Virus record (IMG/VR): IMGVR_UViG_3300021400_000130
Span: 1-64,000 of that record
DNA from: a virus
Lineage: Duplodnaviria > Caudoviricetes
DNA length: 64,000 nucleotides
Reading direction: 5' to 3' (one strand)
Shown: piece after piece, positions 879 to 15,725 of the stretch
Position numbering within the stretch: the stretch's first letter is position 1
How the letters are laid out: each line of letters starts with the position of its first letter
Translations under genes and position numbers: made by a program
Notes under the pieces: model-generated
What the model was told of the DNA's origin: nothing
The model's input: only the letters and a program-made list of their open reading frames with translations
Databases searched by the model: none

Positions 879-1085
879 ATGATTATACTATACACTATTG
901 ATTGCCCTAAGTGTAAAGTTCTTGAAACATTGTTAAAGAAGAACAACTTAGAATATGAATGTGTTCGTGATGTTGAACTAATGGTACAAAAGGGCTTTAG
1001 AGAATGCCCAAAGCTAGAAATTGAAGGACAGCTTTATGATTTTGCGGAATCAGCTAAAATGCTTCGGGAAGGTAAGGTTGTTTGA
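879..1085 (+). CDS. Glutaredoxin/NrdH-like redoxin
   Basis: LYTIDCPKC CxxC motif, P.LEIEG; overlaps the nrdD start. Confidence 0.75.
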   Translation: MIILYTIDCPKCKVLETLLKKNNLEYECVRDVELMVQKGFRECPKLEIEGQLYDFAESAKMLREGKVV

Positions 1086-3064
1086 ATATGGATATAACTC
1101 TAAAGTTAAGTACAGATTTTGAAAGATGTCTTGATAATCTAAAGAACAAATACGGAGTAGATTTTGAGTACATAAATGGAATTCATCCAAGTCAAGTAGA
1201 CTATTCTGAATTCTTAGACAAGTTTGTTAAACAAGATACTCTTGCTGATGTTACGATTGACCCTAATGCAAATACAAATAGAAGGGACATTAGAAGTTTC
1301 ATCACAGAAAAAGGTAAGAGTGCAGATAAACTTTTTGGTCTTAATAAGATATTCTGCGAGATAAAGAAACAGTGGGGAATTAGGACAGCCCGACAGTGGC
1401 TTGAACAAGAATTTAGTAGAGGCTTCTATCTAAATGACGCTACAAGTGCTAGTTACTTCCCTTACTGTTATGCAGTTGATCTAAGTAGACTTGCAACGGA
1501 AGGTTTATTCTTCCTTTCAAGCTACAATAATCAGCCTCCTAAACATCTTACAACATATTTTGATGATGTAATTGAATTTATTAGTTTTCTATCAAACAGA
1601 CAATCAGGTGCAGTAGGCCTTCCGAATGTATTGATCTGGTCGTGGTATTTCTGGAATAAAGATTGTCAAGATAATTATTATCTAAAAGATCCGGATACTT
1701 ATCTTCGACAGAATTTCCAGAAATTTATATATAGATTGAATCAGCCCTTCTTGAGAATAAATCAGTGTGCTTTCACTAATGTTTCTATCTTTGACAGACC
1801 TTATCTAGAAAGTCTTTTTGGAGGGATAGTTTTCCCCGACGGAACATTAGCCATTGAGCACATAGAAGATTTTATCAATGTTCAGAAAGTGTTTATGGAA
1901 GTGGTAAGTGATATAAGAGAGACCTCAATGTTCACTTTCCCTGTGCTGACTTATTCACTTCTTCGCAAGAAAGATATTTCTCAAGAAGCTATTGATAAGA
2001 TGGTAAAAACAAAAGAGTGGGATCTCTTTGTTGATGATGATTTTGCAAGATGGTGCAGTAATCATAATATTAAGTGGAGTGACTCTAACTTCTTTGTAAG
2101 TGACAATGTAGGTACGCTCTCAAACTGCTGTCGTCTTCTTTCTGACACAAAGAAACTAGATGTATTTGTGAACAGCATTGGCGGAACAGCGCTGTCAGTT
2201 GGATCTTGCCGTGTCAGTACTATTAATCTTGTTCGTATAGCGTACGAGTCAAATTGTAAGGAAAAGAAATATCTTGATATTCTAAAGGAAAGAGTTCTTC
2301 TTGATTGTAAAGCTCTAGCAAGTATGCGTCATATTCTCAAGAGGAATATTGAAAAAGGTTTACTTCCTAACTATCAAGACGGAGCTCTTGAGTTGTCCAA
2401 ACAGTTTAGTACTATAGGTGGAATTGGTCTGTACGAAGTAATGGACATGTTTGGATATATTGGTACAGATGAATTCGGCAATAAGTTTTATACTGATGAT
2501 GGAATCAGATTTGCAACTCAGATTCTTGATACTATAAATGAAGTAAAAGATAATTTTGAGTGCGATTTTACTTTCAATGTAGAAATGATACCCGCAGAGA
2601 ATTGTGCCGGTGTTATCTGTCAAGCAGACAATCTTCTGTTTGAGCAGAACAAATATTTCATCTATTCCAATCAGTGGATACCTCTGTATGAGCCTTGTAC
2701 TATTCAAGAAAAGTGTAAGTTAGGTTCCTTGTTTGATATTAAGTGTGGCGGTGGATGTATCGCACATATCAATATTGAAAACAGATTTCCTACAGAAGAA
2801 GCGGCATGGAATATGCTTAACTATGTAGCCTCTCAAGGAGTTATCTATTTTGCATTTACAACTCATATAAATGTAGACGAAAATCATCATTCATTTGTAG
2901 GAACAAAAACTTGTCCTATTTGTGGCAAGCCTGTAAAAGATCAGTTCGCAAGAGTAGTAGGGTTCTATACTCCAATATCATCTTATCAGAAAATTAGAAA
3001 GAAAGAATTTGACGCAAGAAAGTGGTATGATGTTCTTGACTTTAGTGGGGAGCTTGATTCATGA
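1082..3064 (+). CDS. nrdD: Anaerobic ribonucleoside-triphosphate reductase (class III), no ATP cone
   Basis: QSGA, SNCCRL, PAEN, C-terminal CPICG and RVVGFY glycyl-radical motif. Confidence 0.95.
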   Translation: MNMDITLKLSTDFERCLDNLKNKYGVDFEYINGIHPSQVDYSEFLDKFVKQDTLADVTIDPNANTNRRDIRSFITEKGKSADKLFGLNKIFCEIKKQWGIRTARQWLEQEFSRGFYLNDATSASYFPYCYAVDLSRLATEGLFFLSSYNNQPPKHLTTYFDDVIEFISFLSNRQSGAVGLPNVLIWSWYFWNKDCQDNYYLKDPDTYLRQNFQKFIYRLNQPFLRINQCAFTNVSIFDRPYLESLFGGIVFPDGTLAIEHIEDFINVQKVFMEVVSDIRETSMFTFPVLTYSLLRKKDISQEAIDKMVKTKEWDLFVDDDFARWCSNHNIKWSDSNFFVSDNVGTLSNCCRLLSDTKKLDVFVNSIGGTALSVGSCRVSTINLVRIAYESNCKEKKYLDILKERVLLDCKALASMRHILKRNIEKGLLPNYQDGALELSKQFSTIGGIGLYEVMDMFGYIGTDEFGNKFYTDDGIRFATQILDTINEVKDNFECDFTFNVEMIPAENCAGVICQADNLLFEQNKYFIYSNQWIPLYEPCTIQEKCKLGSLFDIKCGGGCIAHINIENRFPTEEAAWNMLNYVASQGVIYFAFTTHINVDENHHSFVGTKTCPICGKPVKDQFARVVGFYTPISSYQKIRKKEFDARKWYDVLDFSGELDS

Positions 3065-3534
3065 TAATTAAAGGCATTAGAGACGAAGATTTTTGTCAGT
3101 ACAAAGAAACTTCTTTCTTTATAGCCTTTCCAAGATGCACATTTAAGTGTGAGAAAGAGTCAGGCAAATTGTGTTGTCAGAATAGTAGCCTATACAAAGA
3201 ACTTCCAATAGACGTTACTACAGATAGTTTAGTCAATCGTTACTTGCAAAATCCGATTACTTCTGCAGTTGTATTTGGAGGGCTAGAACCATTTGATTCA
3301 TTTCAAGACTTATTTGATCTGATAGAGTGTTTTAGAACAAAAACAGATGATACAATTGTTATCTATACAGGGTACAATGAAGAGGAAATAGAAGAATATA
3401 TTTCCGCAATAAGTAAGTTTAAAAATATAATTGTTAAGTTTGGCAGGTTCATTCCCAATGCAAAACATAGATTTGATCCTGTATTAGGAATAGAACTTGC
3501 TTCTTCAAACCAGTATGCAAAGAAGATTTCATAA
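3061..3534 (+). CDS. nrdG: Anaerobic RNR activating radical SAM protein
   Basis: CTFKC...CCQN cluster motif, GGLEPF, IYTGY, GRFI, SSNQ; follows nrdD. Confidence 0.9.
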   Translation: MIIKGIRDEDFCQYKETSFFIAFPRCTFKCEKESGKLCCQNSSLYKELPIDVTTDSLVNRYLQNPITSAVVFGGLEPFDSFQDLFDLIECFRTKTDDTIVIYTGYNEEEIEEYISAISKFKNIIVKFGRFIPNAKHRFDPVLGIELASSNQYAKKIS

Positions 3535-4182: not shown

Positions 4183-4245
4183 AAAGACAATTACAGCAAC
4201 AAGAAAATTTTCTTTTATTAGGGTTAAAAAGAATAGTTGTCTTGT
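4183..4245 (+). ncRNA. YACAGCAA-stem RNA, copy 1 (candidate Ro60/DUF2828-associated Y-like RNA)
   Basis: AAGACAA(4184-4190)-TTACAGCAA...TTGTCTT(4237-4243)G terminal stem. Confidence 0.65.
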
Positions 4246-5996: not shown

Positions 5997-6070
5997 GCTG
6001 CACGAAAGTGCTTGCAAACTATAAAGAACTAATAGTTGATTTTTATTTGTTCTTATATTATAATTTACAT

Positions 6071-7340: not shown

Positions 7341-7508
7341 GGAGCCGTTACGAACAAAATTTCATAGGACTATTAAACAAGTAGGAGTAATTAACCTAAA
7401 CTATTTAATAACACCGTGATTGCCGATTGGGTCAGAGATTATTTGAGTTGCAACTTGTCAAATAATCGTAATCGGATGTGTAGTTGGCTGACTTCAAAGC
7501 CACCATAT

Positions 7509-7592
7509 GCCGATGTGGTGGAATGGTAGACACGCTAGTCTTAGGAACTAGTGCCACATGGCGTGCAGGTTCAAGTCCTGTCATCGGTACCA
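7509..7592 (+). tRNA. tRNA-Leu(TAG)
   Basis: GCCGATG/CATCGGT, loop CTTAGGA, variable arm, CCA. Confidence 0.95.
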
Positions 7593-7769
7593 AACAGGCT
7601 AAGCTGTATAATAAAGGACGCGAGTGGTTTCCTGCGGTGCCTTCTTAGCAAAAACGGGGAGAGAGACGGTTTGGTCCCATGAATAAACATGGAGTAGAGT
7701 AACACCAAATAACTTAGTAGACATATCGCATAGGAGCTCGTGAGGTATGCCGAAGTTACTCAATTATAT

Positions 7770-7856
7770 GCCGAAATGGCGGAATTGGTAGACGGAGAGG
7801 TCTCAAAAACCTCTGCCATAAACGGCGTGTGGGTTCAAGTCCCACTTTCGGCACCA
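7770..7856 (+). tRNA. tRNA-Leu(CAA)
   Basis: GCCGAAA/TTTCGGC, loop CTCAAAA, variable arm, CCA. Confidence 0.95.
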
Positions 7857-7982
7857 GAGAAGCGAGAGAATCTAATGAGTTAGTATTACGTACTACGGCT
7901 CAAAATTGGAGAAACAGATTTGCAATAATATCTCGTAAGGCACTTCTCACCACATTAAATTTAAGGAGGTACTGAAAGGGTA

Positions 7983-9764
7983 GTGAAAAAGTTAATCAAA
8001 GTATTTGTTGAAATTCTACTTCTTGCCTTGTGTTTTACAATTTTTGCCCCTTTAACTTTTGCTGATGTTGATGTACCAGAAATTCCTAATACAGAAGGTA
8101 TGAATGTAGACGATGCAAATGCCTTGATTGAGAAGTATAATAGTGAAGTAGACAATTATAACTCTCAAGTTCAGGAAGAGTATGAGGATCAACTTGCTCA
8201 AACCACACTTCATAATAAAGAAGAAGATCAGAAGGTCGCTGAGAATGCAGAAGAGATTGCCTCAGCTGAACAACAGAATGCTGAGATTCTTGCAGATTAT
8301 GAAGCGGCTAAAGCGGAAGCTGATGCAGTAAATGCACAAGAAGATGAGAAGGTAGAAGAGAGTCAGAAAGCTATAGAAGAAGCTAATGCTAAAAATGAGG
8401 AACTTTCTCAACAGATTGATGCAGCAGAACAGCACAATGCTGAAGAGGATCAGAAAGTTGAAAACTCACAGGCAGAACTAGCAATCATAGAGGATAAGAT
8501 TGAAGGCGACGCTGATGTTGTTGAGCACCATACAGAAGATGCGGCAGACGCTCCTACTGATTGGTCTGACACTACTCAAGATGCCAAAACAATCTCTGTT
8601 ATTTCGTCAGAAACTCCTACAGGAGATAAGATTTCTGTTATTAATATTCACACTTATATAGATGGCGATTCTATTAGTGGTAATCTGTATGAGAGTATAG
8701 ATAATGATACTTTCAAGCTTTCTCCAGAGCTACTAAAAGATGCAGTTCTTGTTGAATGGGAAACAGTAGAAATTGATGTTGATGACACTGTAGTAATAGA
8801 GAGTGAAGCTAGTTTATTTACCGATAACACAATCAGACACGAAGGAAAAAATTATAGACTTCAATCTTACTATTCTTATTTCATTAGAAATATAGAAGGA
8901 TATACTCAAGGCTATTGGCTTGCGAGTGGAATGGTTGCTATGACAGCAACAGATGTAGAATATGGTTGGGGATATGATTTTTCCACTGGCGAAGGTAAAG
9001 CTGGGGACACCTACACAATTCACTATGGAGAAACTGTAAGAAATGTTAACTATCTAGAAGATGGAGTATTAAAGACAGAACAGGTTACCGTTAGAACAAC
9101 AGATGGTGACGCTCCTAAAAATATTTTTGCTTTATTTGTATACACCTTTACTAGGTTGTGGGAAGAGCCAGTAGAATATACTCCAGAGTATGTTGAAGTA
9201 CCTACACTAGTTGATGTTCCTGAAGCATATGTACCACAGTATGTTAGTGTTGATCCTCCTACATATGTAACTGTTCCTGAAGTATATCAGCCTAATTATC
9301 TTGAAGCTCCAGATGAGCCGGTTCTTCTTACTAAGTTGGATTATCTAGCTCCAGTTGTCAATCCAGTTCCTACAGTCACACCAGCTCCCGTAGTTGAAAT
9401 TGTAGAGTCTGAAGATCTTCCTGAGGAAGAAGAAGTAAAGAATATAGAACCCGACGTTGAAATCTACGATGACCCAGAGGTTCCTCTTGCGGATATATCT
9501 CAGTCTCCGGCTTGGGCATTGATTAACTTAATTATTCTTGTTTTAACTATTTTAAGTTTAATCAAACTTGGAGATAGAGGCTATACTGTCTTTAGTCCTA
9601 TTTCTGTTATTAGTTCTTTAGTTCTATTCATACTCACTGAGAATGTATATAATCCAATGATAATGGTAGACAGATGGACAGTATGGATGATTGTTATTTT
9701 TGTAATTGCTATTCTATCAAGAGTATTTGCAAAGAAAGATAAGAAAGAATCCCTAGTAGAATAA
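7983..9764 (+). CDS. Secreted/membrane-anchored acidic surface protein
   Basis: N-terminal signal peptide, acidic coiled coil, Pro/Val/Glu repeats, EIYDDPEVPLA motif, C-terminal TM helices. Confidence 0.75.
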   Translation: MKKLIKVFVEILLLALCFTIFAPLTFADVDVPEIPNTEGMNVDDANALIEKYNSEVDNYNSQVQEEYEDQLAQTTLHNKEEDQKVAENAEEIASAEQQNAEILADYEAAKAEADAVNAQEDEKVEESQKAIEEANAKNEELSQQIDAAEQHNAEEDQKVENSQAELAIIEDKIEGDADVVEHHTEDAADAPTDWSDTTQDAKTISVISSETPTGDKISVINIHTYIDGDSISGNLYESIDNDTFKLSPELLKDAVLVEWETVEIDVDDTVVIESEASLFTDNTIRHEGKNYRLQSYYSYFIRNIEGYTQGYWLASGMVAMTATDVEYGWGYDFSTGEGKAGDTYTIHYGETVRNVNYLEDGVLKTEQVTVRTTDGDAPKNIFALFVYTFTRLWEEPVEYTPEYVEVPTLVDVPEAYVPQYVSVDPPTYVTVPEVYQPNYLEAPDEPVLLTKLDYLAPVVNPVPTVTPAPVVEIVESEDLPEEEEVKNIEPDVEIYDDPEVPLADISQSPAWALINLIILVLTILSLIKLGDRGYTVFSPISVISSLVLFILTENVYNPMIMVDRWTVWMIVIFVIAILSRVFAKKDKKESLVE

Positions 9765-11895: not shown

Positions 11896-12216
11896 ATGAA
11901 AATGTATGACAAGAAGTCCACTAATGTAGTTGAAGCTGTCGATTTCTATTCTGACGGTACTGTTCTTGTTTATGACCCAAATCTTGGTGCTAAACAGAAT
12001 GGTAACGGTTGGGTTACTGTAAAGCGTAATCGTCTTATCCCTGCTGATTATGCTGAAATGTTTATTAGTGGTATGAGTAAGACTGAAAAGAATAAAATTA
12101 AACAACGGCTTACTCTTGTCAGTGCTTCGTGGGAAACCACAGACGGTAAAGTATTTGATCATCTTGACAACGCTGTTGAGCACGAAAAGGAATTGATAGA
12201 ATCTGAAAACAGTTGA
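11896..12216 (+). CDS. Hypothetical protein
   Basis: 106 aa ORF with AAGG SD. Confidence 0.7.
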   Translation: MKMYDKKSTNVVEAVDFYSDGTVLVYDPNLGAKQNGNGWVTVKRNRLIPADYAEMFISGMSKTEKNKIKQRLTLVSASWETTDGKVFDHLDNAVEHEKELIESENS

Positions 12217-12226
12217 TTTCTAATAC

Positions 12227-12317
12227 AAAGACGCATACAGCAATATATTTAATGGTTAAAATTTTAGACTGTCAATCTGAAGTGATACGGTTCAAATCCG
12301 TAAAATACGCGTCTTGT
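12227..12317 (+). ncRNA. YACAGCAA-stem RNA, copy 2, containing D, anticodon (GTC, Asp) and T arms
   Basis: AAGACGC/GCGTCTT terminal stem, ATACAGCAA, ATTT-AATGGTTA-AAAT, TTAGA-CTGTCAA-TCTGA, TACGG-TTCAAAT-CCGTA; no acceptor stem and no CCA. Confidence 0.8.
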
Positions 12318-12375
12318 TAATAATAGTTGATTTTAACATATTAGTTATATATAATATTCTATGTTAAATAAATAT

Positions 12376-12465
12376 GCGTCCTTAACCCGAGCGGCCTTGG
12401 GACCTGTCTTGAAAACAGTGTGTACCTGATGAGGGTATGGGGATCGACACCTCAGGGGCGCGCCA
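12376..12465 (+). tRNA. tRNA-Ser(TGA), atypical D/T loops
   Basis: GCGTCCT/GGGGCGC-G-CCA, CTGT-CTTGAAA-ACAG, variable arm, T-loop ATCGACA. Confidence 0.8.
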
Positions 12466-12478
12466 TTTAATAGATAAT

Positions 12479-12521
12479 AAAACACTCACAGCATATATAA
12501 AAGGACATAAAAAGTGTTTTG
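12479..12521 (+). promoter_or_regulatory. YACAGCA-stem element, copy 3, in the 5' leader of the Ro60-like gene
   Basis: AAAACACT-CACAGCA...AGTGTTTT-G, ending at SD GAAAGGA, 15 nt before ATG 12536. Confidence 0.65.
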
Positions 12522-12535
12522 AAAGGAAAGATAAT

Positions 12536-14059
12536 ATGAACTTTATTCATGAGATGAAAAAAACCAATGATATGAACACTCTTGTTTATACTGAAAATGG
12601 AGCTCTTGGGCATAAGAGTACGGGTAAGTATCTCCTTGACCTCAACTTCTCGGTCGCCTCTTTGCGTAGTATGAAGCCCGCAGAGATTTTTGAGAAGTTT
12701 GAAAATGCTTTCATCGAAGATCCTCGTTTGGCAATGCGTTGGCTCTTCTTCGCTCGCGATGTTAGAGGCGGTCTTGGTGAGCGTAGACTCTTCCGCATCT
12801 GCATGATGAACCTTGCTTCTAGTAATCCGGGCATGGTCAAAGCTCTTGTTACTATGATCCCTGAATACGGACGTTGGGATGATCTGTGGAGTCTTCTCGG
12901 AATTAACAAGGAAGTTGACGAAGAAATCTTTTCAGTTACTAACGATCAGCTCGTTTGTGATCTGAAAAGCTGTGACGTAGGAGAGCCTATCTCTCTTCTT
13001 GCAAAATGGCTTCCGTCCATCAATACTTCATCTAAGGAAACTCGTAACTTAGCTCACAAGTTTGTTAAGAAGTTTGATCTGACGGAGAGGGCATACCGTA
13101 TTATGCTGAGTAAGCTTCGTAAGTATCTTAAAGTTACGGAAACTCAGATGTCTAGCGGCAACTGGGACAAGATTAAGTACGAGTCTGTTCCTTCTCGTGC
13201 CAATCTTCTTTACAAAGATGCTTTCATGCGTCATGATTCAGTTCGTAGAACTAAGTATCTAGAAGATCTGAAAAATGGTACTACCAAGATTAATGCTTCT
13301 ACTCTGTTTCCTCATGACATTGTTCATATGTGTCGTAAGGATGATGAGTCAGTGGAGCAGCTGTGGAAGAATCTTCCTGATTTTGTAAAAGGAGATTCCA
13401 ATACGATTGTTGTTGCCGATGGTAGCGGCTCAATGAATTGCCCTGTCGGTTCTTCTAACATTACAGCTTGGGAAGTTGCTCATGCTCTTGCTATTTACTT
13501 TGCAGAGCGTTGCTCCGGACCTTATAAAGATAAGTATATCACCTTCTCCGCGAGACCTCAGTTTGTTAATCTTAACGGAGGCACTCTATACAATAGTCTT
13601 TATATTGCTCGTAGACATAGTGAGTGCAGTAACACTAACATTGAAGCTGTATTTGATCTCATCTTGAATACAGCTATCAGAACTAATGCAAAACAGAGCG
13701 ATATTCCTAACAATATTTTAATTGTTAGCGATATGGAGTTTGATGATGCTACTTATGGTTATTCTTGGGGACCTGATAAGTTCGACAGACCTTCGGAGAC
13801 TCTCTTTGAAACCATTCGTCGTAGGTGGGAGAACGCTGGGTACAAACTTCCTCGGCTTGTTTTCTGGAATGTAAATTCTCGTACGGGCTCTATTCCTGTC
13901 ACTGAAAATGAGCTTGGCGTTGCTCTTGTTAGTGGATTCTCTCCTGCAGTTTGCAAGATTGTCCTTAGCGGTAAGCTTGATCCTTACGGTGCTCTTGTTG
14001 ATGCCCTTATGGATATGAGATATGATCCTATTGAGGAAACAATCGAGAGATTTATCTGA
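12536..14059 (+). CDS. DUF2828-type Ro60/TROVE-like protein with C-terminal vWA domain
   Basis: TENGA..STG..LDL.F N-terminus, RDVRGGLGER, YGRWDDL, AKWLPS, vWA MIDAS DGSGSM, SDMEFD, FWNV, SGFSP. True start is 12536 after the SD; the track start lies inside tRNA-Ser. Confidence 0.85.
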   Translation: MNFIHEMKKTNDMNTLVYTENGALGHKSTGKYLLDLNFSVASLRSMKPAEIFEKFENAFIEDPRLAMRWLFFARDVRGGLGERRLFRICMMNLASSNPGMVKALVTMIPEYGRWDDLWSLLGINKEVDEEIFSVTNDQLVCDLKSCDVGEPISLLAKWLPSINTSSKETRNLAHKFVKKFDLTERAYRIMLSKLRKYLKVTETQMSSGNWDKIKYESVPSRANLLYKDAFMRHDSVRRTKYLEDLKNGTTKINASTLFPHDIVHMCRKDDESVEQLWKNLPDFVKGDSNTIVVADGSGSMNCPVGSSNITAWEVAHALAIYFAERCSGPYKDKYITFSARPQFVNLNGGTLYNSLYIARRHSECSNTNIEAVFDLILNTAIRTNAKQSDIPNNILIVSDMEFDDATYGYSWGPDKFDRPSETLFETIRRRWENAGYKLPRLVFWNVNSRTGSIPVTENELGVALVSGFSPAVCKIVLSGKLDPYGALVDALMDMRYDPIEETIERFI

Positions 14060-14097
14060 TTTCTAATAGGGAGTACATTTTAACTACTCCCTTATAT

Positions 14098-14173
14098 CCG
14101 GGCGTAACCCAGCTGGTAGGGTGCGTGGTTTGGGACCACGAGGCCGGGGGTTCAAATCCCTCCGCCCGGACCA
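14098..14173 (+). tRNA. tRNA-Pro(TGG)
   Basis: CCGGGCG/CGCCCGG, CGTGG-TTTGGGA-CCACG, CCA. Confidence 0.95.
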
Positions 14174-14174
14174 T

Positions 14175-14241
14175 AAAGACGGTTACAGCAAACTTAACTG
14201 GAATAGACTTTTAATCTATAATACCAAACCTCCCGTCTTGT
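14175..14241 (+). ncRNA. YACAGCAA-stem RNA, copy 4, with a perfect tRNA-Lys(TTT) anticodon stem-loop
   Basis: AAGACGG/CCGTCTT stem, TTACAGCAA, ATAGA-CTTTTAA-TCTAT (14203-14219). Confidence 0.78.
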
Positions 14242-14294
14242 TTTAGTTGATTTTTTGATTTATTATATTATAATAAATATGTAGAATAAAATAT

Positions 14295-14446
14295 GCCTTG
14301 GCAGCTCAGATGGTTTGAGCTCCCGACTTCAAGAGATAGCTTAACAGGAAAGCAGCGTAGCTTTAGAAACGAAGATGTAAGTGCAATTCTTACTCTCTTG
14401 GCCAATAATCGGGTGATCGTTGGTTCGAGTCCAACCCAAGGCACCA
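14295..14446 (+). tRNA. Interrupted tRNA, probably Ile(TAT), with a 75-nt insert in the anticodon
   Basis: GCCTTGG/CCAAGGC-A-CCA, normal D and T arms, CCCGA-CTT[insert 14330-14404]ATAA-TCGGG; 77 nt without the insert. Confidence 0.8.
14330..14404 (+). ncRNA. Nested tRNA-like RNA (CCA-ended, loop CTTTAGA) inside the outer anticodon
   Basis: CAAGAGA/TCTCTTG-G-CCA, TA-GCTT-AACAGGA-AAGC, T-arm GTAAG-TGCAATT-CTTAC, imperfect anticodon arm. Confidence 0.75.
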
Positions 14447-14715
14447 TATAGACATTGTAAGGATTGAAAGGTGTCAGCAATTGCAAGTTGCTATCCAGTT
14501 AATTAATAAGTGTATGCGGTTCACAACCGACTCACGTACCAGTAGTTAATCTTGCATAATACATACTGGTGGGAGTGAGCACAATTCAAACACTCGAAGG
14601 GTAGATAGGGGTAGGAGCTGTAATAGTGGTACAGCGAATGGCACACAGCGACCGATTAAATACTTAGGTCATTCCACTGGTGTGCGTGTAGAGTGCGAAT
14701 TGTGAATTAGAAAGG

Positions 14716-14964
14716 ATGTCACAGATGTACAGAATTACTTTCATAAGATTAGGAAATCATTATTACTGCACGGGATATCTTGGAAAGAACCCTGACAGAG
14801 GATTTTTTACAAAAGAGTTCCAAACTATCGAAGAAGCTGTTAAGTTCTGTGATAAACTTCCTGTTGAAGTTTACATTAAATCCTTAGATAACTTTACAAA
14901 GAAGGAAAGAATAGTTTTCAATAGAAAAAGACTTAGTGTCTGGAGACACAAGAATTCATTTTAA
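14716..14964 (+). CDS. Hypothetical protein
   Basis: 82 aa ORF near SD GAAAGG. Confidence 0.5.
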   Translation: MSQMYRITFIRLGNHYYCTGYLGKNPDRGFFTKEFQTIEEAVKFCDKLPVEVYIKSLDNFTKKERIVFNRKRLSVWRHKNSF

Positions 14965-14968
14965 ATTT

Positions 14969-15038
14969 AAAGGCTCATACAGCAATTCTTTTTTATAATG
15001 CTGACTGTTCATCTGCTAACTATAAAAACGAGCCTTGT
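14969..15038 (+). ncRNA. YACAGCAA-stem RNA, copy 5, with an Asn(GTT)-like anticodon arm
   Basis: AAGGCTC/GAGCCTT stem, ATACAGCAA, GCTGA-CTGTTCA-TCTGC. Confidence 0.75.
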
Positions 15039-15052
15039 ACTTATGTTATTGT

Positions 15053-15125
15053 AAGACCCATACAGCAACTTATCTATTATATAATTATTGTAAATTATTG
15101 AATTAGATCGGAAATCGGGTCTTGT
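15053..15125 (+). ncRNA. YACAGCAA-stem RNA, copy 6, with a possible Tyr(GTA)-like loop
   Basis: AAGACCC/GGGTCTT stem, ATACAGCAA, TAATTA-TTGTAAA-TTATTG. Confidence 0.72.
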
Positions 15126-15139
15126 TTTTTAAAGTTAAT

Positions 15140-15282
15140 AAAGACGCACACTGCAAATATTTTTATAATATTTGAAAGTTTTTGTACACCCTAAACTCTA
15201 TACATCGGAAATAGTTAGATGGTAAGTAAGTTGAGTGTTCCGTTGTGGAGTATAAATTAAAGAACTAAGTCCTGCGTCTTGT
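15140..15282 (+). ncRNA. YACAGCAA-stem RNA, copy 7 (long variant, CACTGCAA)
   Basis: AAGACGCA/TGCGTCTT-G stem followed by CACTGCAA. Confidence 0.65.
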
Positions 15283-15289
15283 TTTATAT

Positions 15290-15377
15290 GCTGGTGTGGT
15301 GGAATAGGTAGACACAGCGGACTTAAAATCCGCTGGCCTTAAAAGCCGTGTCGGTTCGAGTCCGACCACCAGCACCA
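15290..15377 (+). tRNA. tRNA-Leu(TAA)
   Basis: GCTGGTG/CACCAGC, GCGGA-CTTAAAA-TCCGC, CCA. Confidence 0.95.
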
Positions 15378-15544
15378 CTATTATTAGAGTCGAGCAAAAG
15401 TCACAAGTGATGTTGGCCTAAAAAGGGTAACCGCGGCCTACTGAAACGTATGTCAGAGGAGATTTAGAAATTAAATACGAGTGATAGTATTTAGGACTCT
15501 TGTGTACTTCCGGTCTTGCTCGACCGGGCTCTAATAGTAGACCA
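15378..15544 (+). ncRNA. Long-stemmed structured RNA ending in ACCA
   Basis: CTATTATTAGAGT/GCTCTAATAGTAG, GTCGAGCAA/TTGCTCGAC and CACAAG/CTTGTG stems. Confidence 0.55.
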
Positions 15545-15648
15545 TTGGAGAAAGTCCTGCATAGAGGCGGCAACATAAAACTGTGTCAGGTCAGTTTTGA
15601 ATAAGGCGGTCTATATGGCTACCTTATGTTTTTTAACTGACACAGTAT

Positions 15649-15725
15649 GCGGGCGTAGCTCAGCTGGTTAGAGCACCTGCCTTACAAGCAGGGGGTCGAT
15701 GGTTCGAGCCCGTCCGTCCGCACCA
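15649..15725 (+). tRNA. tRNA-Val(TAC)
   Basis: GCGGGCG/CGTCCGC, CCTGC-CTTACAA-GCAGG, CCA. Confidence 0.95.

What the first reader, a model, noticed from the sequence alone, without database searches (positions are those of the whole stretch)
12227..15125. The Y-like RNAs carry anticodon arms (Asp, Lys, Asn, possibly Tyr) but cannot be charged: candidate decoys for anticodon nucleases
Seen: copy 2 holds three tRNA arms in correct spacing: D-arm ATTT-AATGGTTA-AAAT, anticodon arm TTAGA-CTGTCAA-TCTGA (GTC at 12271-12273) and T-arm TACGG-TTCAAAT-CCGTA. Its acceptor stem and CCA are replaced by the YACAGCAA handle. Copy 4 holds a perfect Lys arm, ATAGA-CTTTTAA-TCTAT. Copy 5 has GCTGA-CTGTTCA-TCTGC (Asn GTT, one mismatch). 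Copy 6 has a weaker TTGTAAA loop (Tyr GTA). Known: tRNA-Lys(UUU) is the target of PrrC and PARIS AriB, and the GUN tRNAs (Asp, Asn, Tyr, His) are the queuosine set cut by colicin E5. YrlA mimics tRNA but places its Ro stem at the anticodon arm, the opposite of this arrangement. Inference: protein-stabilised anticodon mimics titrate host defence tRNases or tRNA-modifying enzymes. The phage also encodes real tRNAs for the same four anticodons.
Basis: partly seen in the sequence, partly recalled or inferred. Interest (0 to 1): 0.88.

Follow-up and report, generated by a model that had tools for sequence, protein, structure and literature searches.

The report
Phage Ro60-like RNAs displaying anticodon arms
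A 154-kb phage surrounds its gene for a Ro60-shaped RNA-binding protein with seven small RNAs that share one "handle"; two of them display faithful copies of tRNA anticodon arms (Asp, Lys), a design kept in dozens of related phages, which fits a bait for enzymes that read or cut tRNA anticodons, though that use is untested.

Summary
Copy 2 (12228-12315) is a tRNA core (D, anticodon and T arms; Rfam tRNA 37.4 bits, model 10-63) whose acceptor stem is replaced by a covarying 7-bp stem plus TACAGCAA. Copy 4 (14176-14239) is that handle plus a perfect Lys anticodon stem-loop.

The adjacent 507-aa DUF2828 protein is predicted to fold like Ro60. In 88 related loci, elements found by handle alone lie on the gene strand (274 vs 26), mostly within 2 kb upstream. 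Of 201 distinct elements, 45 carry a 5-bp/7-nt hairpin with loop CU-NNN-A(A/C); shuffles predict 0.27. Positions 32, 33, 37 and 38 are invariant, while the triplet is swapped on otherwise conserved scaffolds.

Lys (UUU) and Asn (GUU) are frequent, but so are Ser (UGA), Ile and Met, so the predicted Lys/GUN restriction is only partly met. Copy 4's 17-nt arm is identical to natural tRNA-Lys arms of Streptococcus, Bacteroidales and Clostridia.

Anticodon-arm mimicry on a Y-RNA-like particle is well supported. The decoy role is plausible but unproven. This scan has noted the same handle-RNA/DUF2828 system in at least 127 other genomes. I found no paper or Rfam family for it.

The parts
4184..4243 (+). 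Copy 1: handle RNA (AAGACAA / TTGTCTT closing stem, T-TACAGCAA), non-tRNA-like insert
12228..12315 (+). Copy 2: handle RNA carrying an acceptor-less tRNA core. Closing stem 12228-12234/12309-12315, handle TACAGCAA 12236-12243, D-arm 12247-12262, anticodon arm 12264-12280 (GTC 12271-12273), T-arm 12286-12302
   Evidence: Rfam tRNA 37.4 bits, model 10-63. Own core model R1 59.4 bits. Model R2 110 bits. Orthologues
12479..12520 (+). Copy 3: minimal handle RNA (AAAACAC/GTGTTTT, handle CACAGCAT) in the 5' leader of the Ro60-like gene
   Evidence: Orthologous elements end just before the gene start in L009, L010, L012 and L026
12536..14059 (+). Ro60-like protein gene (507 aa; Pfam DUF2828 + DUF7788; helical repeats plus vWA domain with invariant DxSxS)
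   Evidence: Pfam. Invariant D295/S297/S299. AlphaFold2 model (mean pLDDT 71.6). Foldseek top 12 hits are all Ro60 (9KOP, 9L5Y, 2I91, 1YVP, 2NVO, 9NEN)
14176..14239 (+). Copy 4: handle RNA displaying a bare Lys anticodon stem-loop. Handle 14184-14191; ATAGA-CTTTTAA-TCTAT at 14203-14219, seated on a short UGG/CCA helix
   Evidence: The 17-mer equals natural tRNA-Lys(UUU) arms
14970..15036 (+). Copy 5: handle RNA with an imperfect anticodon-like hairpin GCTGA-CTGTTCA-TCTGC (15000-15016)
15053..15123 (+). Copy 6: handle RNA with an A/U-rich insert and no supported anticodon arm
   Evidence: Weak Rfam Dicty_Class_I_RNA match of 18.3 bits
15141..15280 (+). Copy 7: long handle RNA (handle CACTGCAA) with a 120-nt structured insert, conserved in L009

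Best explanation
The seven repeats are genes for small RNAs that partner the phage's Ro60-like (DUF2828 + vWA) protein, as Y RNAs partner Ro60. Each RNA has a constant docking module: a 7-bp closing helix followed on the 5' strand by N-YACAGCAA. Each also has a variable display module.

In copy 2 the display module is a whole tRNA body without an acceptor stem. In copy 4 it is just an anticodon stem-loop. These modules are molecular mimics of tRNA anticodon arms, held on a stable protein-bound scaffold. They cannot be aminoacylated or used in translation.

The most likely use is to engage proteins that read anticodon loops, first of all host tRNA-cutting defence enzymes. The particle would act as bait, either as a competitive decoy or as a tripwire. 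The displayed triplet would set which enzyme is engaged.

Shown here: the RNAs' structure, covariation, conservation and linkage to the gene; the protein's predicted fold; selection on the loop's shape; swapping of the triplet; identity of one arm to natural tRNA-Lys.

Inferred: that the protein binds the handle, that the RNAs are expressed and stable, and everything about the target.
For: 1. Family and structure. Seven copies, all on the + strand, have perfect 7-bp closing stems that covary. Across 105 distinct relatives, all 7 closing-stem pairs and all 5 anticodon-stem pairs show compensatory changes, and 98% of cells are paired (the alignment was fitted to the model).

2. Linkage. Elements found by handle alone number 274 on the gene strand and 26 opposite. 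In 68 loci, 162 lie within 2 kb upstream of the gene. All 197 R2 matches are on the gene strand. The same handle lies beside DUF2828 genes of Felix O1, Mycobacterium phage Archie and Enterococcus phage EFDG1.

3. Protein. The predicted fold matches Ro60 over its full length, and the MIDAS DxSxS motif is invariant.

4. Mimicry. Copy 2 passes Rfam's tRNA threshold on positions 10-63 only. Of 201 distinct elements, 45 have CU-NNN-A(A/C) loops on 5-bp stems, against 0.27 expected. Loop positions 32, 33, 37 and 38 show 0 of 68 changes.

5. Triplet as the variable part. On the same scaffolds I see UUU/GUU, UUU/UGA, GAU/GUU and UUU/UUG. The copy 2 class reads GUC, GUU, UCA, UGA and CAU.

6. Copy 4's 17-nt arm is identical to chromosomal tRNA-Lys(UUU) arms in Streptococcus and to those on Bacteroidaceae, Muribaculaceae and Clostridia contigs. 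It differs from the phage's own tRNA-Lys arm. The same arm sits on six more handle elements that have different closing stems.

7. Context from papers. AriB targets tRNA-Lys(UUU), Thr(UGU) and Asn(GUU) (PMC12409363). Isolated anticodon stem-loops suffice as substrates for an activated Cas13 (PMC13692257). A Ro60-like protein of the Felix O1-type phage Bas63 counters the Ppl defence (PMC11482910).
Against: The displayed triplets include Ser UGA, Ile GAU, Met CAU and Ser GCU, which are not classic anticodon-nuclease targets.

Five of this phage's seven copies, and about three quarters of distinct elements in relatives, display no anticodon arm. Anticodon bait therefore cannot be the family's only job.

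Felix O1-type phages, the only relatives with a defence phenotype, have no bare anticodon-arm element, and Ppl is not known to cut tRNA.

The host is unknown, so mimicry of the host's own tRNA is not shown.

Known Y RNAs act as tethers and gates, not decoys.
Confidence: 0.4

Rival explanations
1. Adaptor or tether, as for classical Y RNAs. The tRNA-like or anticodon-arm module recruits a tRNA-handling enzyme to the Ro60-like ring, or brings damaged tRNAs to it. Candidate enzymes are PNPase, an RNA ligase or kinase, a modification enzyme, RNase P/Z or the CCA-adding enzyme. The particle would then work in tRNA quality control, repair or turnover during infection, not as bait.
For: Y RNAs tether Ro60 to PNPase, and YrlA's tRNA-like domain is recognised by tRNA enzymes (PMC4201824). 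Thermus phage Ro60 and its Yrl RNAs form complexes with host PNPase (PMC12135203). Relatives carry full tRNA scaffolds and YrlA-like permuted tRNAs on the same handle. The phage encodes an Rnl2-type RNA ligase and at least 18 tRNAs. Many family members carry no anticodon arm.
Against: The minimal elements keep only the anticodon stem-loop, and keep its exact loop signature. This points to a partner that reads the anticodon loop, not the tRNA elbow or acceptor end. Triplet swapping on fixed scaffolds is not predicted by a generic tether. The ligase gene is not adjacent to the locus, and no RtcB was found.
Confidence: 0.3
2. Regulators of anticodon-reading housekeeping proteins. The displayed arms would bind aminoacyl-tRNA synthetases or anticodon-loop modification enzymes, or occupy ribosomal decoding sites, and so retune host translation in favour of the phage's own tRNAs.
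For: Lys, Asn and Asp synthetases (class IIb) and Ile and Met synthetases recognise the anticodon (own knowledge). The E. coli thrS operator and an HIV-1 genomic element are precedents for anticodon-arm mimics that bind synthetases (own knowledge). The displayed set (UUU, GUU, GUC, GAU, CAU) fits anticodon-reading synthetases better than it fits known nucleases.
Against: Ser UGA is the second most common displayed triplet, and seryl-tRNA synthetase does not read the anticodon. No such role is known for any Ro60 particle. There is no direct evidence.
Confidence: 0.12
3. Decayed tRNA genes or processing punctuation. The elements would be tRNA remnants and transcript-processing signals in the tRNA operon, with no function tied to the Ro60-like protein.
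For: They lie among tRNA genes on the same strand. Copy 2 clearly derives from a tRNA. Promoter-like TTGATT-17-TATAAT sites follow copies 2 and 4.
Against: The ACAGCAA handle and a covarying stem are kept next to DUF2828 genes in phages of Actinobacteria, Firmicutes, Proteobacteria and gut bacteria, at about 35% protein identity. Elements pile up within 2 kb of the gene. Loop positions are under purifying selection. The handle also occurs as a capped hairpin grafted into tRNA scaffolds. Pseudogenes would not keep perfect arms.
Confidence: 0.05

Closest known systems
Ro60 (Rsr) with Y RNAs, especially bacterial and mycobacteriophage YrlA/YrlB and D. radiodurans Yrn1 (Chen et al. 2014, PMC4201824); Thermus phage phiLo Ro60 with Yrl1/Yrl2 (PMC12135203)
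   Same: Several small RNAs are encoded beside a Ro60-fold protein on the same strand. Their ends pair in a stem with a conserved motif on the 5' strand. The second module is variable and often mimics tRNA. Relatives of this phage (Felix O1, Archie, EFDG1) carry YrlA-like permuted tRNAs on the same handle.
   Different: The protein belongs to Pfam DUF2828/DUF7788, not TROVE. The motif is ACAGCAA, not GNCGAA or GGUCCGA. No Rfam Y_RNA or YrlA match appears at E<=10. In copies 2 and 4 the anticodon arm is displayed and the acceptor stem is missing, the reverse of YrlA. Bare anticodon-arm members with swappable triplets have not been described.
Class I RNAs of dictyostelid amoebae (Rfam RF01414; Kjellin et al. 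2021, PMC7919456)
   Same: These are about 60-nt RNAs with a short covarying stem joining the 5' and 3' ends. A conserved 11-nt motif follows the 5' strand, with invariant T3, C6, C9, A10 and A11, which fits (C)CTTACAGCAA (the full motif is from my memory). The rest of the RNA is variable. Weak RF01414 matches fall on copy 6 and on two Felix O1 elements (18-20 bits).
   Different: Scores are far below the gathering score of 41.5. These are eukaryotic RNAs with an RRM-protein partner. Neither an anticodon-arm display nor a Ro60 link has been reported for them.
Phage answers to tRNA-targeting immunity: nuclease-resistant phage tRNAs (T5 against PARIS, PMC12409363) and T4 Pnk/Rnl1 repair of PrrC-cut tRNA-Lys
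   Same: The same battlefield: anticodon loops of Lys and Asn tRNAs. This phage also carries real tRNAs for the displayed anticodons.
   Different: Those strategies replace or repair tRNAs. Here non-chargeable mimics are displayed on a protein scaffold. No decoy of this type is documented in the papers I searched.
Anticodon-arm mimics that bind synthetases: E. coli thrS mRNA operator and the HIV-1 tRNA-like element (own knowledge)
   Same: A 7-nt anticodon-type loop on a short stem, outside a tRNA, is used to capture an anticodon-reading protein.
   Different: Those are cis elements in an mRNA or a viral genome. They are not free small RNAs on a Ro60-like particle.

Membership tests
tRNA (Rfam RF00005) | Cloverleaf core: D arm, anticodon arm, T arm with conserved loop residues | tested here: met
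   Copy 2 scores 37.4 bits (gathering 29) over model positions 10-63. Copies 4-7 have no match at E<=10.
tRNA (Rfam RF00005) | 7-bp acceptor stem stacked on the T arm, discriminator base and CCA end | tested here: not met
   Model positions 1-9 and 64-71 are unmatched. ARAGORN calls no gene there. A 12-nt linker with TACAGCAA and a 6-nt 3' spacer separate the closing stem from the core, and the 3' side reads GTT.
Y RNA / YrlA (Ro60 partner RNAs) | Encoded close to a Ro60 orthologue, on the same strand | tested here: met
   The protein's predicted fold is Ro60-like.
Y RNA / YrlA (Ro60 partner RNAs) | Terminal stem with a conserved protein-binding motif on the 5' strand (GGUCCGA / GNCGAAN0-1G) | tested here: inconclusive
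   The terminal covarying stem is present, but the motif is ACAGCAA, a different sequence at the equivalent place.
Y RNA / YrlA (Ro60 partner RNAs) | Match to Rfam Y_RNA or YrlA covariance models | tested here: not met
   No such match at E<=10 in window 12200-12540 or 14060-15660, or in Felix O1 7380-8700.
Y RNA / YrlA (Ro60 partner RNAs) | Physical binding to the Ro60 protein, with stability depending on it | not testable with these tools
   Needs immunoprecipitation or gel-shift experiments.
YrlA topology | T arm, acceptor-like hairpin and D arm, with the Ro stem in place of the anticodon arm | tested here: not met
   Copy 2 runs D arm, anticodon arm, T arm, with the handle at the acceptor position. 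The YrlA-like order is seen in relatives only.
Ro60 / TROVE protein | Helical-repeat ring plus C-terminal vWA domain with a MIDAS motif | tested here: met
   Foldseek gives full-length matches to 9KOP, 2I91, 1YVP and 2NVO (probability 1.00, TM 0.36-0.45). DxSxS is invariant. Caveat: residues 203-287 of the model have low confidence.
Ro60 / TROVE protein | Sequence membership of Pfam TROVE | tested here: not met
   Pfam gives DUF2828 and DUF7788 only. No PDB sequence match was found, even with a profile.
Dictyostelid Class I RNA (RF01414) | Score at or above the Rfam gathering threshold | tested here: not met
   18.3 bits against 41.5.

The most novel reading that the evidence does not exclude
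A widespread phage ribonucleoprotein, made of a Ro60-like ring and handle RNAs, works as a programmable anti-defence device. It displays a copy of the host tRNA anticodon arm that a given immune nuclease attacks (for example Lys or Asn for PrrC- or PARIS-type enzymes), and so captures, inhibits or senses that nuclease. Phages would retarget it by swapping three bases.
Probability: 0.3. Interest if true: 0.9.

Novelty: new variant of a known kind. Interest (0 to 1): 0.78.

Why it matters
tRNA anticodon loops are now recognised as a main target of bacterial immunity (PrrC, RloC, PARIS, Cas13, retron effectors). The known phage answers are spare tRNAs and tRNA repair. A protein-bound RNA that simply displays the targeted arm would be a third kind of answer, and an RNA-based one.

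It would also give Ro60/Y-RNA particles a concrete job in phages. Finally, it would explain an unannotated RNA family that sits beside a gene found in more than 700 sequenced phages, including Felix O1, Listeria, Staphylococcus, Enterococcus and Mycobacterium phages that are used in the laboratory and in therapy.

The idea is directly testable in Felix O1/Bas63-type and Enterococcus phages.

Tried and rejected
1. Promoter or terminator reading of the repeats. Rejected: the stems covary, the handle is kept across phyla whose promoters differ, and it also occurs as a capped hairpin inside tRNA scaffolds.

2. A general excess of change in the anticodon triplet. Not found: 17 independent close pairs gave 2 of 51 changes in the triplet against 30 of 474 elsewhere. 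The triplet is usually kept and occasionally swapped. The L010/L012/L013 copy 2 loops are the striking exception: four loop changes on a locus background of 93-95% identity.

3. RNA-first association test with AAAGACNNNNTACAGCAA in viral contigs. Uninformative: 77 of 80 hits had no closing stem and are probably chance, and only one real element with an adjacent DUF2828 gene was recovered.

4. Sequence search of the PDB with the protein and with a profile. Nothing relevant. The predicted-fold search was needed.

5. Search for RtcB, T4 Rnl1-type ligase and TGT families in the genome. No matches. The Rnl1 control rang in no genome, so that result is void.

6. Expression evidence.

7. Near-identical phage records. 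None in GenBank phages.

8. Host identification was not achieved.


Full report
**What is there.** The window is the first 64 kb of a complete 153,613-bp phage genome with 36.6% G+C and direct terminal repeats. Between 4.1 and 15.7 kb lies a tRNA region with 18 ARAGORN tRNAs, all on the + strand. Inside it, ORF 12536-14059 encodes a 507-aa protein with Pfam DUF2828 and DUF7788.

A search for YACWGCAA preceded by a 7-nt strand whose exact complement lies downstream finds seven elements. All are on the + strand: 4184-4243, 12228-12315, 12479-12520, 14176-14239, 14970-15036, 15053-15123 and 15141-15280. No element with this signature (AAGRC-type stem, handle at the fixed offset, GT after the 3' strand) lies elsewhere in the 154-kb genome. 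The closing stems are perfect and differ from copy to copy in a compensatory way (AAGACGC/GCGTCTT, AAGACGG/CCGTCTT, AAGGCTC/GAGCCTT, AAGACCC/GGGTCTT and so on).

**Checking the observation.**
Rfam's tRNA model matches 12247-12302 at 37.4 bits, above its gathering score of 29, but only over model positions 10-63, which are the D arm, anticodon arm, variable loop and T arm. GTC lies at 12271-12273. The D loop has GG and the T loop reads UUCAAAU.
- Copy 2 has no acceptor stem. The closing stem is separated from the core by A-TACAGCAA-TAT on the 5' side and by six bases on the 3' side, and the 3' flank reads GTT, not CCA. ARAGORN calls nothing there.
- Copy 4 holds ATAGA-CTTTTAA-TCTAT (14203-14219), a perfect 5-bp stem with a 7-nt loop.
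- Copy 5's hairpin has one mismatch and C at position 37.
- Copy 6's loop sits on a 4-of-5, all-A/U stem.
- In the closest relative (L009, protein 74% identical) the copy 2 and copy 4 arms are kept. The copy 5 orthologue has a different 5-bp/7-nt hairpin, and the copy 6 orthologue has nothing alike.
- So two of the four claimed arms are solid, one is weak and one is unsupported. The phage does encode real tRNAs with GTC, TTT, GTT and GTA anticodons.

**The protein.** An AlphaFold2 model (mean pLDDT 71.6, with residues 203-287 poor) matches Ro60 structures over its full length. The 12 best Foldseek hits are all Ro60: Thermus phage phiLo Ro60 (9KOP, 9L5Y), Xenopus Ro (2I91, 1YVP, 1YVR), D. radiodurans Rsr (2NVO) and human Ro60 (9NEN and related entries), with probability 1.00 and TM 0.36-0.45. 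A DxSxS MIDAS motif is invariant among five relatives. Homologues occur in 710 GenBank phage records, where they are annotated 'Ro-like RNA binding protein' or 'DUF2828'. These include Felix O1-type, Listeria, Staphylococcus, Enterococcus, Campylobacter, Vibrio and Mycobacterium phages.

**Comparative evidence.** I fetched 88 loci encoding 44-74% identical proteins.
- Detecting elements by closing stem plus C[AT]GCAA alone, blind to the insert, gives 274 on the gene strand and 26 on the other. In 68 loci with full flanks, 108 lie in the first kb upstream of the gene, 54 in the second, and 1-7 per kb further out.
- A covariance model of the copy 2 class (R2) gives 197 matches in 982 kb, all on the gene strand. 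On the resulting alignment every closing-stem pair and every anticodon-stem pair shows compensatory changes, and 98% of cells are paired. That alignment was fitted to the model.
- The same handle stands beside the DUF2828 gene in three distant phages. Felix O1 has four elements, one with a T arm, acceptor hairpin and D arm in YrlA order. Mycobacterium phage Archie has three, one YrlA-like. Enterococcus phage EFDG1 has three, two YrlA-like.
- In the metagenomic relatives, 105 of 148 distinct 'tRNAs with an insert' carry the handle as a capped, circularly permuted hairpin grafted into a complete tRNA scaffold. At least 21 of these keep a CUGUUAA hairpin next to it.
- The handle is therefore a portable module, and the natural reading is that it is the docking site of the Ro60-like protein. 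This step is inferred from linkage, not shown.

**Are anticodon arms a real feature of the family?** Yes.
- Among the 201 distinct handle-defined elements, 105 have some 5-bp/7-nt hairpin (39.5 expected from shuffled inserts). Fifty have a loop starting CU (1.7 expected). Forty-five have CU-NNN-A(A/C) (0.27 expected; maximum 2 in 200 shuffles). Relatedness inflates the counts, but the arms sit on many different stems.
- A large class of 61-70-nt elements has a constant plan: closing stem, handle, a 2-4-bp helix (often NGG/CCN), one purine, the 17-nt arm, 2-4 unpaired bases, and the closing stem.
- In 17 independent close pairs, loop positions 32, 33, 37 and 38 never differ (0 of 68). The triplet differs in 2 of 51 positions and unstructured parts in 30 of 474.
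- The triplet is nevertheless swapped on otherwise conserved scaffolds: UUU/GUU (L010 vs L012/L013), UUU/UGA (L070/L087 vs L045/L069/L074), GAU/GUU, UUU/UUG, and CUUUUAA/CCGUUAA.
- In the copy 2 class the loop reads GUC (window), GUU (L009), UCA (L010, L013, L014, L015), UGA (L012) and CAU (L051-L081). L010, L012 and L013 loci are 93-95% identical overall, yet their copy 2 loops differ at four positions.
- Phages usually carry two different displayed triplets.

**Which anticodons?** Among the 45 distinct arms the counts are UUU 13, UGA 9, GUU 7, ACA 3, GAU 3, GCU 2, UUG 2, CAU 2, and GUC, UAU, AUA and GUA one each. Lys plus GUN make up about half, far above a composition-based expectation of roughly 10% (my estimate). 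For context, PARIS AriB cuts tRNA-Lys(UUU), Thr(UGU) and Asn(GUU) (PMC12409363).

- Seven of the 81 matches examined lie inside ARAGORN tRNA-Lys(UUU) genes. Two are on large Streptococcus contigs. Four are on Bacteroidaceae, Muribaculaceae and Clostridia contigs. One is on a phage-like contig binned with Methanobrevibacter that also carries a DUF2828 gene.
- Six further matches are handle elements with other closing stems, on contigs binned with gut or rumen bacteria. Two of these have a DUF2828 gene adjacent.
- The phage's own tRNA-Lys has a different anticodon stem (AGCGA/TCGAG).
- The displayed arm thus copies a natural bacterial tRNA-Lys arm, stem included, and not the phage's own tRNA. 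Since the host is unknown, I cannot say it copies the host's.

**Mechanism.** The family resemblance is to Ro60/Y RNA particles: several RNAs beside the gene, a terminal stem with a conserved 5'-strand motif, and a variable and often tRNA-like second module (PMC4201824, PMC12135203).

What is particular here is that the minimal members keep only an anticodon stem-loop with its canonical loop signature. This points to a partner that reads anticodon loops, not the tRNA elbow or acceptor end. Such partners are anticodon nucleases, anticodon-loop modification enzymes, anticodon-reading synthetases and the decoding site.

I rank bait for tRNA-targeting defence enzymes first (0.4). My reasons are the Lys and Asn bias, the swapping of triplets on fixed scaffolds, the identity to a natural tRNA-Lys arm that differs from the phage's own tRNA, and the sufficiency of isolated stem-loops as substrates for at least one immune nuclease (PMC13692257). 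In addition, the Ro60-like gp130 of the Felix O1-type phage Bas63 counters a defence system (PMC11482910).

A Y-RNA-style adaptor for tRNA repair or turnover is close behind (0.3). It is favoured by the precedents, by the whole-tRNA members in relatives and by an Rnl2-type ligase in the genome. Regulation of synthetases or translation (0.12) and non-functional remnants (0.05) follow.

Most elements in this phage and in its relatives display no anticodon arm, so bait cannot be the family's only function.

**Comparison with the known.** No Rfam Y_RNA or YrlA match was found. The only recurrent weak matches are to Dictyostelium Class I RNAs (18-20 bits; gathering 41.5). Their published architecture is strikingly alike: a short covarying terminal stem, an 11-nt motif after the 5' strand with invariant T3, C6, C9, A10 and A11, and a variable rest (PMC7919456). 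That lead came from earlier notes of this scan.

Chen et al. 2014 reported YrlA-like RNAs in 22 phages, including mycobacteriophages. A phage Ro-like protein with a tRNA-mimic RNA is therefore known in kind. They also note that D. radiodurans Yrn1 can be drawn with an 'anticodon arm' with a 6-nt loop. In the papers searched I found no description of the ACAGCAA handle, of the acceptor-less tRNA core, or of bare anticodon-arm members with swappable triplets.

**Earlier notes of this scan.** The scan has flagged the same handle-RNA/DUF2828 system in at least 127 other genomes, several times with the same decoy idea. My analysis was largely done before I read those notes and agrees with them. That agreement is not independent evidence.

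**Verdict.** Anticodon-arm mimicry on a Y-RNA-like scaffold is well supported by comparative data. The decoy function is a reasonable, testable and unproven hypothesis.

Noticed in passing
window 14295-14446: An outer tRNA (acceptor, D and T arms, anticodon stem CCCGA/TCGGG) carries a 75-nt insert in its anticodon loop that is itself tRNA-like (Rfam tRNA 43 bits at 14330-14401). Similar nested inserts occur at L036:7524-7676, L018:9821-9967 and L020:1419-1585.
   Followed up: partly
window 12376-12466: A tRNA-Ser(UGA)-like sequence with an acceptor-type stem with G-U pairs, loop CTTGAAA, a long variable arm, an odd T loop (ATCGACA) and a GCCA end. Neither ARAGORN nor Rfam detects it. A promoter-like TTGATT-17-TATAAT lies just upstream (12327-12355).
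   Followed up: no
window 12479-12520: Copy 3 lies in the 5' leader, 16 nt before the start codon of the Ro60-like gene. Relatives also have an element ending just before the gene start (L009:4927-4984, L010:4944-4983, L012:4932-4983, L026:4933-4983). This could mean autoregulation, or co-transcription and processing.
   Followed up: partly
window 15378-15648: An intergenic stretch between tRNA-Leu and tRNA-Val folds far better than shuffles (-82.7 kcal/mol, z = -3.93), with a long-range closing helix. It has no Rfam match. Region 14448-14715 is unremarkable (z = -1.43).
   Followed up: partly
L001:3582-3712, L018:4592-4713, L021:4637-4756, L029:4489-4631 and about 100 others: Complete tRNA scaffolds in relatives carry the handle as a capped, circularly permuted hairpin (3' strand, loop, 5' strand, ACAGCAA) grafted at or before the anticodon arm. 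Many keep a CUGUUAA (Asn-like) arm beside it. The window's phage has none of this type.
   Followed up: partly
L010:7850-7983, L018:7609-7740, L033:6606-6738, L034:6658-6789: A second class of 47-50-nt inserts in the anticodon loops of tRNA-Leu, Ser and Pro genes lacks the handle but shares a hairpin with the motif GGGGCAGCACC. It may be a small intron of unknown type.
   Followed up: no
L003:2589-2663, L006:1830-1920: Relatives encode suppressor-type tRNAs (anticodons TCA and CTA), which hints at stop-codon reassignment in some of these phages. The copy 2 orthologues of L010, L013, L014 and L015 display UCA.
   Followed up: no
G000 152296-153549 (L211:817-2070): A 417-aa protein with a PHA02142 OB-fold domain and Pfam RNA_ligase (Rnl2-type) lies at the right end of the genome. 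On a circular map it is about 4.8 kb from copy 1. No RtcB was found.
   Followed up: partly
window 1082-3534: The phage carries anaerobic ribonucleotide reductase NrdD and a 4Fe-4S activase-like gene just upstream of the tRNA/handle-RNA region. Enterococcus phage EFDG1 also has NrdD near its DUF2828 gene. This suggests an anaerobic, probably gut, host.
   Followed up: no
window 6036-6064, 12327-12355, 14247-14274: The same promoter-like site (TTGATT, 16-17 nt, TATAAT) recurs three times in the tRNA region, twice immediately after a handle RNA.
   Followed up: no
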